Positions 17,767 through 20,292 of a stretch of 64,000 nt of DNA are shown piece after piece. Source of the stretch: a virus; UHGV virus genome UHGV-0060833, one strand, 5' to 3'. The notes under the pieces are model-generated. The model was not told the DNA's origin. It saw nothing but the letters and a program-made list of their open reading frames with translations, and did not search any database. Positions within the stretch are counted from its first letter, which is position 1. Each line of letters opens with the position of its first letter. The position numbers and the translations under genes are program-made.

Positions 17767-18396
17767 ATGAACATACCACCCAGGGCGACTAGGACTGTTT
17801 TTTGTGTCGGTAGCGGTCCGTCACTCACTCGTGAGGACTGTGCTGCTATAGAAAAAACTGGCTGTTCAATCATCGCGGTTAACAATTCCTGGCAGATGTT
17901 CGATGACATTTATGCCTTATACGCCGGTGATTTGTCATGGTGGAAGCAATACGGATCCACCATACCGGGAGGGAGATTCCGCAAAGTGACAGCCAACCTG
18001 GCGGCGGCGAAATCATTTTCGTTGGAGTACAGGCGATATTGTGGACCGGCGGAAGGGGTAAATAGCGGCGCGCAGGCTATCAGTCTGGCTGCTGAATCAG
18101 GGGCTGAAGTAGTGGTATTAGTCGGCTATGACTGTTCTCTGCAAAACGGCCTTCATTGGCATGGCGCGCACCCTCAAGCCCTACGGAATCCAACGCAGGT
18201 GTCTATTTCAAAATGGCAACAGCAGTTCCTGGATACCCGCAAAAAACACGCAGATTTACATATTTTGAATGCAAGTAGGAGCAGTGCAATTCAATGTTTC
18301 CCAAGAATAAATTTAGAGGCAGTGATCGCGTTATTATCGTCGGCAGTGGCCCAAGCGCCGCAAACTTTGTTGCGCCGCGCGGAGTGCCGATTATAG
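17767..18396 (+). CDS. GxGPS-motif protein, paralog A (GT42 sialyltransferase / MAF-DUF115-like fold)
   Basis: TVFCVGSGPSL ... SIIAVNNSW ... VVLVGYDCS mirrors Campylobacter CstII VIIAGNGPSL. Start uncertain (17734 or 17767). Confidence 0.5.
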   Translation: MNIPPRATRTVFCVGSGPSLTREDCAAIEKTGCSIIAVNNSWQMFDDIYALYAGDLSWWKQYGSTIPGGRFRKVTANLAAAKSFSLEYRRYCGPAEGVNSGAQAISLAAESGAEVVVLVGYDCSLQNGLHWHGAHPQALRNPTQVSISKWQQQFLDTRKKHADLHILNASRSSAIQCFPRINLEAVIALLSSAVAQAPQTLLRRAECRL

Positions 18397-18920
18397 CGGT
18401 CAATGGGGCCATCGACTGGCTTAACCGCGCTTCTTATTTTTTCACACTTGATCCATCGTCAGACAATATGCGGCGCGTTGGTCGTGGCCGCCGTCGCCGT
18501 GGTGTTTGTTATTGCATGGCACTACCCGATGTTAAAGAACGTGAAGTCAGAGACGGCGTTCTGTGCTTCCGTCGTGTGGCTGAACGTGGCATGGAGCCAA
18601 AAAATACGAATTCTCCCGAGTGGTGGGCGTGGCGCTGGTCCGCACATTTCGGACTTTGCGAAGATGAGAATGAAATTGCCAGCGGCAATAGTGCATATGG
18701 CGCTCTGAACCTGGCTTTCCATATCGGATTCAAACATGTCGCCCTGGTGGGCGTTGACGCTACACAAGAACCACGCGTTCACTCCGGCGGCACGCCAAAA
18801 AATCTAAGTCACCTGCCTTTGTTATTCCAGTCTGCGCGTGAACGGATTGACGTTGTTTCATGCGGGAAAATGGGAGGTATTCCGCAGATGACTCTTAAAG
18901 AATGGCTGAAGAATACATGA
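18294..18920 (+). CDS. GxGPS-motif protein, paralog B
   Basis: [14 protein letters not shown] ... [11 protein letters not shown] ... VALVGVDAT; clear paralog of the upstream gene; 5' end overlaps its 3' end by ~100 nt. Confidence 0.5.
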
Positions 18921-19594
18921 TGGCACCCACAATTTATCACCGTATCGACGGTACCAAATACAGGAATGTCTGGGTTGTTGGTGATCTGCATGGTTGCTAC
19001 ACCAGACTGATGTCCGAACTCCATCGTGTGGATTTTGACCCGGCGCAGGATTTACTGATATCGGTCGGCGACCTTATCGATCGCGGTACTGAAAATGTCG
19101 AATGTCTGGAACTATTGCAGATGCCCTGGTTCAGGGCAGTGATGGGGAACCATGAGCGGCTGATGATTGATGCGTTAAGTCCAGATGGCAACGTGAATAA
19201 CTGGCTAATGAATGGCGGACAATGGTTCTTCATGCTGGACACTGATCAGGAAATATTAGCCTGGGCGCTGGTGGAGCTGGTAAAGCGTCTGCCCTATATC
19301 ATTGAGTTGAACACCGGGCAAGAAACTATCGTTATAGCCCATGCCGACTATCCGGATAATGAATACCAATTCGGTAAGGAGGTGCCGCTTTTCAACGTTG
19401 TCTGGGCGCGCGAGCGTATCAGTGATTCGATGGATGATATTGGTGGCGAAATTTCGGGCGCAGATCGTTTTATCTTTGGTCACACTCCGGTGAAAAGCCC
19501 GAAGACATTCTGGAATCAGCAGTATATCGACACTGGTGCCGTATTTTGCGGAAACCTGACATTGATGAAAGTGAAAGGTGATGGTGCAGCATGA
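18902..19594 (+). CDS. ppp: Ser/Thr protein phosphatase (lambda-PP-like metallophosphatase)
   Basis: GDLHG, GDLIDRG, GNHE metallophosphoesterase motifs in order. Confidence 0.85.
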
Positions 19595-20292
19595 AGATTG
19601 CTTTAGTTTTTCGCTCTGGTGGTGACTATAACGCTTCCGATGTGCAGTGGCTGGTTAATCAACTGCCAAAAGGCTATGAAATTATTTGCCTGACAGACCT
19701 GAAGCGTTTACATGTACCTGGCGTCAAAGTTGTCCCATTGATCAACCAGTGGCAAAAGTGCCGTGGCTGGTGGGCGAAAATCGAGTTGTTCCGACCGGAT
19801 ATAACCGATGATCTGTTCTATCTGGATTTGGACACGGTTATTGCCGGTGATATACGCCCAATCCTAGAGCATCCACCAACCAGCTTCACCATGCTTAGGG
19901 ATTTTTACCATCCACAATATCGTGGCAGCGGTGCCCTGTGGATACCAAATAGTGTTAAAGCGCATATCTGGAGTTCATTCTGGCAAGATCCGGAAGGTTG
20001 GATTTCTCGTTGTGTCACTACTGAGTGTTGGGGTGACCAGGGGTTCTTACGAAAGGTTATGGGCGATGATACACCAGCATTTCAGGATCTGTATCCAGGA
20101 TGGTTTGTAAGTTACAAGGCCGATGTTGTGGAACCTGGTTCAAAATATGCGAGCGCGCGTTACTCCAGGGGGAATGGGGCATTACCAAAAGACTGCCGAA
20201 TAATCTTTTTCCACGGCAAACCGCGACCTCGCGAAGTGTCAGAGGATTGGCTTCCCCTTATCAGCTCATTTTTTGAGCGAGAATCAGAATAA
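19591..20292 (+). CDS. Putative nucleotide-sugar glycosyltransferase-like protein (DxD motif)
   Basis: [12 protein letters not shown] DxD-type motif after an N-terminal Rossmann-like strand ([13 protein letters not shown]); overlaps ppp stop. Confidence 0.4.

What the first reader, a model, noticed from the sequence alone, without database searches (positions are those of the whole stretch)
17767..20292. Glycosylation-like module: two GxGPS-motif paralogs, a Ser/Thr phosphatase and a DxD protein
Two adjacent paralogs share the N-terminal VGSGPS - IIAVN - LVGxD architecture of GT42 sialyltransferases / MAF-DUF115 proteins. They are followed by a lambda-PP-type phosphatase and a protein with a DxD motif, all in one operon closed by an operator-terminator-operator element. 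The target (LPS or host surface, virion protein, or DNA) is unknown.
Basis: partly seen in the sequence, partly recalled or inferred. Interest (0 to 1): 0.5.

Follow-up and report, generated by a model that had tools for sequence, protein, structure and literature searches.

The report
Phage P1 three-glycosyltransferase module pmgO-pmgP-pmgQ
This stretch is the phage P1 operon pmgN-pmgO-pmgP-ppp-pmgQ, whose three sugar-transferase genes form a portable, uncharacterised set found in the late or structural gene regions of many phages of Gram-negative bacteria, most likely to attach sugars to a protein such as a virion component.

Summary
The window is a P1-type phage, and 17767-20292 covers pmgO, pmgP, ppp and pmgQ.

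- **PmgQ** is GT8-like: its profile hits solved GT8 enzymes (E 6e-7), with DLD, GDQ and FHGKPRP motifs.
- **Ppp** is a lambda phosphatase homolog (E 1.5e-94).
- **The operon end** is a hairpin flanked by two C1 operators.

New here: O, P and Q travel together without Ppp in unrelated phages and are found naturally fused (O+P, P+Q, Q+P+methyltransferase). They often sit directly after the major capsid gene or beside the lysis genes. In Pseudescherichia they are interleaved with genes for Ig-like adhesins. Ppp is a P1-lineage insertion, not part of the module.

Best reading: a late-expressed protein-glycosylation module, possibly using CMP-Kdo. Neither the target nor the donor is shown. LPS inner-core remodelling is the main rival, and a P1 cryo-EM paper that models most virion proteins mentions no glycans. 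Viable deletion mutants already exist, so this is directly testable.

The parts
17577..17593 (-). C1 repressor operator Op83 (Oppp), overlapping the predicted promoter PpmgN (17538-17564). It keeps the operon off in the lysogen.
   Evidence: P1 record annotation mapped onto the window (window = L001 coordinate + 13999). Sequence read. It has 4 mismatches to the operator consensus I used, so one search did not list it.
17637..17792 (+). pmgN (hdmA in P7), a small protein of unknown function and the first gene of the operon. It is not conserved with the O/P/Q module elsewhere.
   Evidence: PHROG 2350, unknown function. No PmgN-like protein next to O/P/Q homologs in other loci.
17734..18396 (+). 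pmgO (hdmB): MAF/MptE-like-fold putative glycosyltransferase. Invariant motifs in 33 homologs: GPSL, D, N (in AVN), SG (in NSG), GYDCS, and H, H and W of HWHG. Alternative start at 17767.
18294..18920 (+). pmgP (hdmC): distant paralog of pmgO with the same fold. Motifs SGPS, AVNG, FTLD, GNSA, GVD, LSHLP. It overlaps the poorly conserved pmgO tail by 103 bases.
18902..19594 (+). ppp: lambda-type Ser/Thr (PPP-family) metallophosphatase. It was inserted in the P1 lineage between pmgP and pmgQ and is not part of the conserved module.
   Evidence: Pfam Metallophos E 9e-16. PDB 1G5B E 1.5e-94. Absent from all non-P1 O/P/Q loci. Present alone in phage D6.
19591..20292 (+). pmgQ (hdmD): GT8-like (glycogenin-like, retaining GT-A type) glycosyltransferase with DLD(T), GDQ, SYK and FHGKPRP motifs.
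   Evidence: Profile against PDB: Glat1 6mw5 E 6.1e-7, GlyE 5gvv E 0.0019, glycogenin E 0.014. PHROG 1962 'glycosyltransferase'.
20294..20359 (+). Operon end: C1 operator Op86a (20294-20310, +), an 11-bp hairpin (20319-20346) followed by a T run, and C1 operator Op86b (20343-20359, -). The annotated promoter PpmgR for the next operon lies inside this element.
   Evidence: The simple terminator scan did not call it, probably because part of the T run pairs into the stem.

Best explanation
pmgO, pmgP and pmgQ encode a self-contained set of three soluble cytoplasmic glycosyltransferases. They are made during lytic growth and act together, probably as a complex, to build a short glycan on a protein acceptor, most likely a virion component made at the same time. 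PmgQ (GT8-like, retaining) would transfer a hexose from a UDP-sugar. PmgP and PmgO (fold of Maf, Cst and WaaZ) would each add a 2-keto-3-deoxy 'ulosonic' acid from a CMP-activated donor. No locus carries sugar-nucleotide synthesis genes, and every phage host named in the searches is Gram-negative. CMP-Kdo, which I take to be made by these Gram-negative hosts, is therefore the most economical donor. Ppp is an unrelated lambda-type phosphatase that was inserted into the module in the P1 lineage. Shown: the folds, the paralogy, GT8 homology, co-occurrence, gene fusions, late or structural gene context, C1 control and non-essentiality. Inferred: transferase activity, donor, order of action and acceptor.
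For: Enzyme class:
- E. coli WaaZ, described as the KdoIII transferase (PMC4651636), also gives a sub-threshold match to the same Pfam family PF01973.
- PmgQ is homologous to solved GT8 enzymes. The hits I recognise (Glat1, GlyE, glycogenin) act on proteins; that point is from my own knowledge.

Working together:
- O-P-Q keep the same order in unrelated phages.
- Natural fusions exist: O+P (P0051), P+Q (P0222, P0286), Q+P (P0303), Q+P+methyltransferase (P0270) and methyltransferase+P (P0310).
- Further glycosyltransferase-like and methyltransferase genes join the set in some loci.

Protein or virion target:
- The genes lie directly after the HK97-type major capsid gene in Pseudomonas, Ochrobactrum, Zhongshania and Methylophilaceae prophages and in phage D3.
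- They lie between ORFs I read as head-tail connector genes and the tail genes in Brevundimonas (those ORFs were not annotated by any search), and after tail protein genes in CcrColossus. Elsewhere they sit beside the lysis cassette.
- In five Pseudescherichia/Enterobacteriaceae genomes the trio has the same arrangement and, where read (L094, L108), it is interleaved with an inverse-autotransporter adhesin and other Big_1 Ig-like proteins.

Regulation: the operon has a C1 operator and lies downstream of late promoter LPpmgL, so it should be off in the lysogen.

Precedent: actinobacteriophages use tandem glycosyltransferases plus an O-methyltransferase to glycosylate capsid and tail tube (PMC11600133).

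Other: no transmembrane segment. All 79 PmgO-like and 27 PmgP-like phage records whose organism or host is listed infect Gram-negative hosts.
Against: - No enzyme activity, donor or acceptor has been shown for any member of the family.
- A 2026 cryo-EM study of P1 that built atomic models for the capsid, connector and baseplate proteins (baseplate 3.2 A, connector 3.5 A) never mentions glycans. Any P1 virion glycan would have to sit on flexible or unresolved parts (fibres, termini), be sub-stoichiometric, or need a donor absent from the laboratory host.
- Deleting or knocking down pmgO, pmgP or pmgQ does not reduce plaque formation.
- I know of no report of Kdo on a protein (own knowledge).
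- Positions beside lysis genes are also typical of cargo genes ('morons') unrelated to virions.
- Acceptor proteins are not conserved among the very different phages that carry the module, whereas the Kdo2-lipid A inner core would be.
Confidence: 0.42

Rival explanations
1. LPS inner-core remodelling. PmgP and PmgO act like WaaZ, adding extra Kdo to nascent lipid A-core, and PmgQ acts like the GT8 core hexosyltransferases. This would alter or truncate the core made late in infection, for example to stop progeny adsorbing to debris or to block superinfection.
For: - The precomputed Pfam record of the O+P fusion lists WaaZ_KDO_III, though only as a faint hit.
- WaaZ gives a sub-threshold PF01973 match, and its only tblastn hit in the window is the PmgP N-terminus (E 0.019).
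- GT8 includes the LPS core transferases WaaO and WaaJ, and P1 adsorbs to the LPS core (both from my own knowledge).
- The family is restricted to Gram-negative hosts.
- A conserved lipid A-Kdo acceptor would explain how the module works in very different hosts.
Against: - Similarity to WaaZ is only at superfamily level (hhalign probability 9-14%; 12-14 bits).
- The PmgQ profile did not list the solved LPS-type GT8 LgtC, which I recall is in the PDB.
- The genes are repressed in the lysogen and embedded in late or structural operons. Known LPS-converting phage genes are expressed from the prophage (own knowledge).
- LPS made only late in infection is a small fraction of the outer membrane.
- This reading does not explain the adhesin island.
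Confidence: 0.27
2. PmgO and PmgP are not glycosyltransferases. They would be ATP-dependent pyrophosphokinases or other nucleotide-dependent enzymes of the MptE / thiamine pyrophosphokinase branch, acting on a small molecule.
Against: - The top structural match for both proteins is Maf, with the longest alignment (160-164 residues).
- They are constantly adjacent to, and sometimes fused with, a GT8-like transferase and methyltransferases.
- No pterin or thiamine genes were seen nearby in the loci read.
Confidence: 0.07
3. The four enzymes form one pathway that includes the phosphatase. For example, Ppp would dephosphorylate a sugar-phosphate intermediate or the acceptor.
For: In P1-type genomes ppp sits between pmgP and pmgQ with overlapping stop and start codons. 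A P1-like Pantoea plasmid keeps this arrangement (L092).
Against: No Ppp homolog occurs in any non-P1 locus carrying O, P or Q. D6 has ppp in an unrelated context. Ppp is a close homolog of lambda phosphatase (E 1.5e-94). That enzyme sits in lambda's nin region with no glycosyltransferases, as far as I know.
Confidence: 0.08
4. The module glycosylates phage DNA.
For: None beyond the presence of glycosyltransferases in a phage. Some loci lie near terminase genes.
Against: The enzyme families involved (Maf/GT42-like, GT8-like) are not known to act on DNA, and I know of no report of sugar-modified P1 DNA (both from my own knowledge). The genes sit with structural and lysis genes, not replication genes, and the non-phage copy sits among adhesin genes.
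Confidence: 0.03

Closest known systems
Maf (motility accessory factor) flagellin glycosyltransferases, PDB 5MU5, in the DUF115 / MptE-like Pfam family PF01973
   Different: PmgO and PmgP are about 200 residues and consist of the catalytic domain only. Maf is about 630 residues with extra domains. Sequence identity is 16-19%. The P1 proteins fall below the Pfam gathering score. No flagellin is involved. Donor and acceptor are unknown.
CAZy GT42 sialyltransferases Cst-I and Cst-II of Campylobacter jejuni
   Different: E-values are only 0.2-0.6. The catalytic His188 of Cst-II has no securely aligned counterpart. Cst enzymes act on lipooligosaccharide. As far as I know E. coli K-12 makes no CMP-Neu5Ac.
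WaaZ (LPS KdoIII transferase; CAZy GT73 from memory)
   Same: Also gives a sub-threshold PF01973 match (E 1.5e-6). It shares the N-terminal '...SGP(S/T)...IIAVNG' motif. It would use CMP-Kdo, a donor available in every host of this module.
   Different: The relationship is only at superfamily level. WaaZ is 283 residues and encoded in the chromosomal waa cluster.
GT8 glycogenin-like transferases (Glat1 6MW5, GlyE 5GVV, glycogenin)
   Same: The PmgQ family profile matches them (E 6e-7 to 0.02) across the DxD, GDQ and C-terminal H-G-x-(K/P)-x-P motifs.
   Different: PmgQ is shorter (233 residues) and has no Pfam PF01501 hit. Its fold was not modelled here.
Actinobacteriophage virion glycosylation clusters (Freeman et al. 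2023, as cited in PMC11600133 and PMC11256854)
   Same: Tandem phage glycosyltransferase genes, sometimes with a methyltransferase. They glycosylate capsid and tail tube proteins and are dispensable for growth.
   Different: The hosts are Gram-positive-type actinobacteria. Homology between the enzymes was not examined. Glycosylation was shown experimentally there but not here.
Bacteriophage lambda Ser/Thr protein phosphatase (PDB 1G5B; NinI)
   Same: Ppp aligns over its full length at E 1.5e-94 and has all three metallophosphatase motifs.
   Different: The gene context differs: Ppp sits inside a glycosyltransferase operon in P1. Its substrate is unknown.

Membership tests
MptE-like / DUF115 superfamily (Pfam PF01973; Maf, MptE) | Rossmann-like fold shared by Maf, MptE and GT42 enzymes | tested here: met
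MptE-like / DUF115 superfamily (Pfam PF01973; Maf, MptE) | Score above the Pfam gathering threshold (34.6 bits) | tested here: not met
   PmgO scores 23.4 bits and PmgP 21.1 bits, matching only the C-terminal part of the model. A distant PmgP-family member, P0258, does pass at 44.1 bits.
MptE-like / DUF115 superfamily (Pfam PF01973; Maf, MptE) | N-terminal G-x-G-P-S nucleotide-binding loop after the first strand | tested here: met
   GSGPS is present in both proteins. G, P and S are invariant in the PmgO family, and G and P nearly invariant in the PmgP family.
CAZy GT42 (Cst-I/Cst-II) | Significant sequence similarity to GT42 members | tested here: not met
   PmgO profile against PDB Cst-II gives E 0.2-0.6. 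The PmgP profile gives no hit.
CAZy GT42 (Cst-I/Cst-II) | Catalytic histidine and phosphate-binding tyrosines (His188, Tyr156, Tyr162 of Cst-II, from memory) | tested here: inconclusive
   Invariant S124, H130 and H132 in PmgO, and T157 (not invariant), R161 (nearly invariant) and invariant H173 in PmgP, follow the G-x-D strand. No residue-level structural superposition was available.
CAZy GT42 (Cst-I/Cst-II) | Transfer from a CMP-activated ulosonic acid | not testable with these tools
   Needs enzyme assays.
WaaZ-type Kdo transferase | Sequence homology to WaaZ | tested here: inconclusive
   hhalign probability 14% and 9%. HMM scores 12-14 bits. Faint precomputed PF27901 hit on P0051. tblastn E 0.019.
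CAZy GT8 | DxD metal/nucleotide-sugar motif | tested here: met
   D79-L80-D81 is invariant in 30 homologs and aligns with the DxD of Glat1, GlyE and glycogenin.
CAZy GT8 | C-terminal H-x-x-G-x-x-K-P-type motif (from memory) | tested here: met
   In F-H-G-K-P-R-P (207-213), H208, G209 and P213 are invariant. The motif aligns with 'HF(L)G..KPW' of glycogenin.
CAZy GT8 | Significant profile similarity to GT8 members, or a Pfam PF01501 hit | tested here: inconclusive
   Profile against PDB Glat1 gives E 6.1e-7. However, P1 PmgQ has no PF01501 hit, and only 8 of 30 family members give weak ones (best E 0.026).
CAZy GT8 | GT-A fold | not tested
Lambda-type PPP metallophosphatase | Full-length homology plus the GDxHG, GDxxDRG and GNHE motifs | tested here: met
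   1G5B E 1.5e-94. Pfam Metallophos 59.3 bits against a 21.5-bit cut-off. Motifs located.
Phage virion-glycosylation systems (actinobacteriophage type) | Glycan covalently attached to capsid or tail proteins, dependent on the phage glycosyltransferases | not testable with these tools
   Only gene context is available. The P1 cryo-EM paper mentions no glycans.

The most novel reading that the evidence does not exclude
Many phages of Gram-negative bacteria, from P1 to D3-like and jumbo phages, carry a mobile kit of Maf-like and GT8-like transferases. The kit would coat virion proteins, and in some bacteria Ig-like adhesins, with a short acidic glycan containing Kdo or another ulosonic acid taken from the host CMP-sugar pool. 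As far as I can tell, this would be the first virion glycosylation system in Gram-negative phages and the first Kdo-type protein glycosylation. It could bear on phage stability, immune recognition or mimicry of host surfaces.
Probability: 0.25. Interest if true: 0.8.

Novelty: new variant of a known kind. Interest (0 to 1): 0.55.

Why it matters
P1 is among the best-studied phages, yet this operon has carried only the placeholder 'putative morphogenetic function'. The data here show four things:
- Its core is a three-enzyme module that moves as a unit among very different phages of Gram-negative bacteria.
- The module is often placed right behind the capsid gene.
- It also accompanies adhesin genes in bacterial chromosomes.
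- The phosphatase is a bystander.

If the module glycosylates virion proteins, phage glycosylation would extend beyond actinobacteriophages. That would be relevant to phage therapy, where glycan shields alter antibody responses, and to P1-based transduction and delivery vectors. If it remodels LPS instead, it would be a lytic-phase, not a lysogenic, form of receptor modification. Either answer is within reach because in-frame deletion mutants of each gene already exist.

Tried and rejected
- **Profile comparison A1 vs A2:** confounded, because A1 contained the O+P fusion P0051. Repeated without it.
- **Viral-contig scan with the PmgP alignment:** returned only near-identical P1 genomes, so it gave no diversity. 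The genome-contig scan, exact-protein look-ups and tblastn against phage records supplied the diversity instead.
- **AlphaFold-database fold search:** the library was unavailable, so closeness to the WaaZ model could not be measured by structure.
- **WaaZ comparisons by sequence:** weak throughout.
- **Simple terminator scan:** did not call the hairpin at 20319-20346, probably because part of its T run pairs into the stem. Folding confirmed the hairpin.
- **Negative searches:** PADLOC gave no hits, NCBIfam hit only Ppp, and Rfam gave none.
- **Papers not held:** Lobocka 2004 (P1 genome) and Freeman 2023, so the latter is cited second-hand. Two 'DUF115' literature hits were really DUF1156.
- **Short Ser/Gly-rich C-terminal tails** on the capsid proteins upstream of the module: considered as candidate acceptor sites, but too short and uncontrolled to use as evidence.
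- **DNA modification** as the target: rejected for lack of any support.
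Full report
**Identity of the region.** The window is a P1-type phage or plasmid-prophage. Bases 17500-20600 are 98.6-99.1% identical to P1 and P7 records. In the P1 record the genes are pmgN, pmgO, pmgP, ppp and pmgQ. In P7 they are hdmA-D plus ppp, labelled 'head morphogenesis' with no stated basis. Both records give only placeholder functions. RefSeq and PHROGs add homology labels: 'alpha-2,3-sialyltransferase' for pmgO and 'glycosyltransferase' for pmgQ. I found no paper that studies these genes beyond essentiality screens and transcript profiling.

**Checking the observation.** The ORFs are where the finding says. Its start, 17767, is an internal ATG of the annotated pmgO ORF, which begins at 17734. 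Both paralogs carry GSGPS, IIAVN and VG(Y/V)D. Pairwise BLASTP detects only the N-terminus (E 0.004). Alignments of 33 PmgO and 38 PmgP homologs match each other over 160 columns at 97.8% probability, E 7.5e-13. Ppp is a full-length homolog of lambda phosphatase (1G5B, E 1.5e-94). PmgQ has an invariant D-L-D. Successive genes overlap by 103, 19 and 4 bases.

The operon ends at an 11-bp hairpin with a T run. Two inverted C1 operators flank it, annotated Op86a and Op86b in P1. The whole element folds at -29.8 kcal/mol, z = -10.4. Upstream lie the C1 operator Op83 and, further up, the late promoter LPpmgL. No RNA family and no substantial antisense ORF lies in the region.

- Also listed for both: SteA, thiamine pyrophosphokinases and GT29 sialyltransferases.

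Two cautions apply. The same fold houses pyrophosphokinases, and sequence-level membership of GT42 or of Pfam PF01973 is not reached by the P1 proteins. One distant PmgP relative does pass the Pfam threshold.

E. coli WaaZ, described as the transferase for the third Kdo of the LPS core (PMC4651636), also gives a sub-threshold match to PF01973. It is only remotely similar to PmgO and PmgP.

The PmgQ family profile matches solved GT8 enzymes: Glat1 at E 6.1e-7, GlyE at 0.0019 and glycogenin at 0.014. The alignments cover the DxD, GDQ and FHGxPRP motifs. None of the four proteins has a hydrophobic segment long enough to span a membrane.

**The module and its limits.** PmgO-, PmgP- and PmgQ-like genes occur together, usually in that order, in loci unrelated to P1:
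- A metagenomic phage in which O and P are fused into one protein (L003, P0051).
- A lambdoid Citrobacter rodentium prophage (L004).
- HK97-like prophages of Pseudomonas (L006), Zhongshania (L100) and Brevundimonas (L105).
- A Sinomicrobium (Bacteroidota) contig (L106), in the order O-Q-P.

P and Q occur without O in Ochrobactrum (L007), Methylophilaceae (L101) and others. O occurs without P or Q in Hafnia, phage D3 and Klebsiella phage Eowyn. There it travels with a PHROG-6804 protein and a methyltransferase.

A profile search of 1.84 billion representative proteins finds 567 PmgP relatives. Among them are natural fusions P+Q, Q+P, Q+P+methyltransferase and methyltransferase+P. Extra glycosyltransferase-like proteins (weak PF03407 hits; 'family 9 glycosyl transferase' in CcrColossus) and methyltransferases join the set in several loci. 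This is the signature of a glycan-assembly pathway, which argues against a pyrophosphokinase role.

No non-P1 locus contains a Ppp homolog. Phage D6 carries ppp in a different neighbourhood without O, P or Q. Ppp is therefore an insertion specific to the P1 lineage and not a component of the module.

**Where the module sits.**
- *After the capsid gene.* In Pseudomonas, Zhongshania and Methylophilaceae prophages and in phage D3, the first module gene is the next called or annotated gene after the HK97-type major capsid gene; the raw ORF list for Zhongshania shows a 94-codon ORF in between. In Ochrobactrum one connector gene intervenes.
- *Among tail genes.* In Brevundimonas it lies between ORFs I read by position as head-tail connector genes and the tail genes. 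In CcrColossus it follows large tail protein genes.
- *Beside the lysis cassette.* In the lambdoid and other prophages it flanks the lysis genes, downstream of the late antiterminator.
- *In P1.* It lies in the morphogenetic region, behind a late promoter and a C1 operator.

All these positions are transcribed late, together with virion proteins, and are silent in lysogens.

One non-phage context is informative. In five Pseudescherichia/Enterobacteriaceae genomes, O, P and Q keep the same spacing and orientation. Where the intervening genes were read (L094, L108), they encode an inverse-autotransporter adhesin with many Big_1 Ig-like domains and other Big_1 proteins. This resembles other cytoplasmic adhesin-glycosylation systems known to me.

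**Most likely mechanism.** I commit to a late-expressed, cytoplasmic protein-glycosylation module.
- PmgQ adds a hexose from a UDP-sugar.
- PmgP and PmgO each add a CMP-activated ulosonic acid.
- The three probably work as a complex, given the fusions.
- The acceptor in phages is probably a virion protein.
- The donor is inferred to be CMP-Kdo. No locus carries sugar-nucleotide synthesis genes. Every phage record with a PmgO-like (79 records) or PmgP-like (27 records) gene whose organism or host is listed infects a Gram-negative host, out of a collection of 50,697 records.

The precedent for the general idea is the actinobacteriophage system, where tandem glycosyltransferases and an O-methyltransferase modify capsid and tail tube.

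Confidence differs by layer. About 0.8 that this is a glycan-building module. About 0.4 that the acceptor is a phage or other protein and not LPS. Lower still for Kdo as the sugar.

**Evidence against, and rivals.** A 2026 cryo-EM study modelled almost all P1 virion proteins (baseplate at 3.2 A, connector at 3.5 A) and never mentions glycans. PmgO, PmgP and PmgQ are not among the virion proteins it identified. Any P1 glycan would have to be on unresolved parts such as fibres or termini, be sub-stoichiometric, or depend on a donor missing in the laboratory host. The genes are dispensable for plaque formation.

The main rival is WaaZ-like remodelling of the LPS inner core. Three points favour it: the faint WaaZ similarity, the restriction to Gram-negative hosts, and a universally conserved acceptor. 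Three points weigh against it: repression in lysogens, placement next to the capsid gene, and the adhesin island. The pyrophosphokinase, phosphatase-coupled-pathway and DNA-glycosylation readings are much less likely for the reasons given above.

**Novelty and verdict.** The genes themselves are known and carry homology-based labels, so their existence and rough enzyme class are not new. Four points are new here:
- The O/P/Q trio is a conserved, mobile and sometimes fused module.
- Ppp is not part of it.
- It recurs next to capsid and tail genes across unrelated phages of Gram-negative bacteria.
- It is associated with Ig-like adhesins in bacteria.

If the protein-glycosylation reading holds, this is a new variant of a known kind of system (phage virion glycosylation), with different enzymes, hosts and probably sugar. 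Interest is moderate to good (0.55). The function is unproven, but the question is sharply posed and can be tested with mutants that already exist.

Noticed in passing
L094-L098 and L108 (Pseudescherichia / Enterobacteriaceae chromosomes), e.g. L108 2241-15359: PmgO-, PmgP- and PmgQ-like genes keep the same arrangement in five species-level genomes. In L108 they are interleaved with an inverse-autotransporter adhesin (IAT_beta plus many Big_1 domains, 1166 aa) and three further Big_1 proteins. This looks like a dedicated adhesin-glycosylation island.
   Followed up: partly
L111 (phage D3) 3480-4076 and 5379-6810; L008 7001-9007; L113 7001-9086: A second recurring set: a PmgO-like gene, a PHROG-6804 protein of about 280 aa and a methyltransferase. 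It occurs in Hafnia, in phage D3 (orf7, orf12, orf13) and, by gene sizes and annotation only, in Klebsiella phage Eowyn. The similarly sized CcrColossus gp131, in an analogous cluster, is annotated as a family 9 glycosyltransferase; its relation to PHROG 6804 was not tested. In D3 the PmgO-like match spans both annotated orf6.5 and orf7, so these may be one gene.
   Followed up: partly
L003 9757-10335; L006 8254-8835; L110 9252-9827; L099 2159-2731; L102 959-1530: A fourth small GT-A-like protein of about 190 aa (weak PF03407 hits, W-x-D-x-D motif) often follows the O/P/Q genes. It has no homolog in the P1 window by tblastn.
   Followed up: partly
window 17595-17792 (pmgN): CRISPRi knock-down scored pmgN as essential, whereas an in-frame deletion is reported viable (PMC10695390). 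The downstream genes are non-essential, so polarity alone does not explain the discrepancy.
   Followed up: no
window 16992-17570 (pmgM): PmgM gives a sub-threshold match to the VRR-NUC nuclease domain (E 3e-4). One phage record (JL22) already labels it a VRR-NUC protein.
   Followed up: no
window 21930-22436 (pap): The 'P1 acid phosphatase' Pap matches the HAD phosphatase domain of polynucleotide kinase-phosphatase (PF25109, E 7.8e-12) better than the class B acid phosphatases. This hints at a nucleic-acid 3'-phosphatase role.
   Followed up: no
window, whole (e.g. 3285, 6807, 16670, 20294, 20343, 22436, 35479, 35562, 52069): Fourteen matches to the C1 operator consensus within 3 mismatches, against 0.33 expected by chance. 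This maps the immunity-controlled promoters across the window. The annotated Op83 upstream of pmgN has 4 mismatches and is missed by this search.
   Followed up: partly
L006 6316-6375, L007 6271-6330, L100 7155-7214, L101 4569-4628 (C-termini of major capsid proteins): The HK97-type capsid proteins encoded just upstream of the module all end in short Ser/Gly-rich tails: GSLSES, SGATGS, GNLSGAS and GSLKDGS. These could be acceptor sites, but no comparison with capsids of phages lacking the module was made.
   Followed up: no
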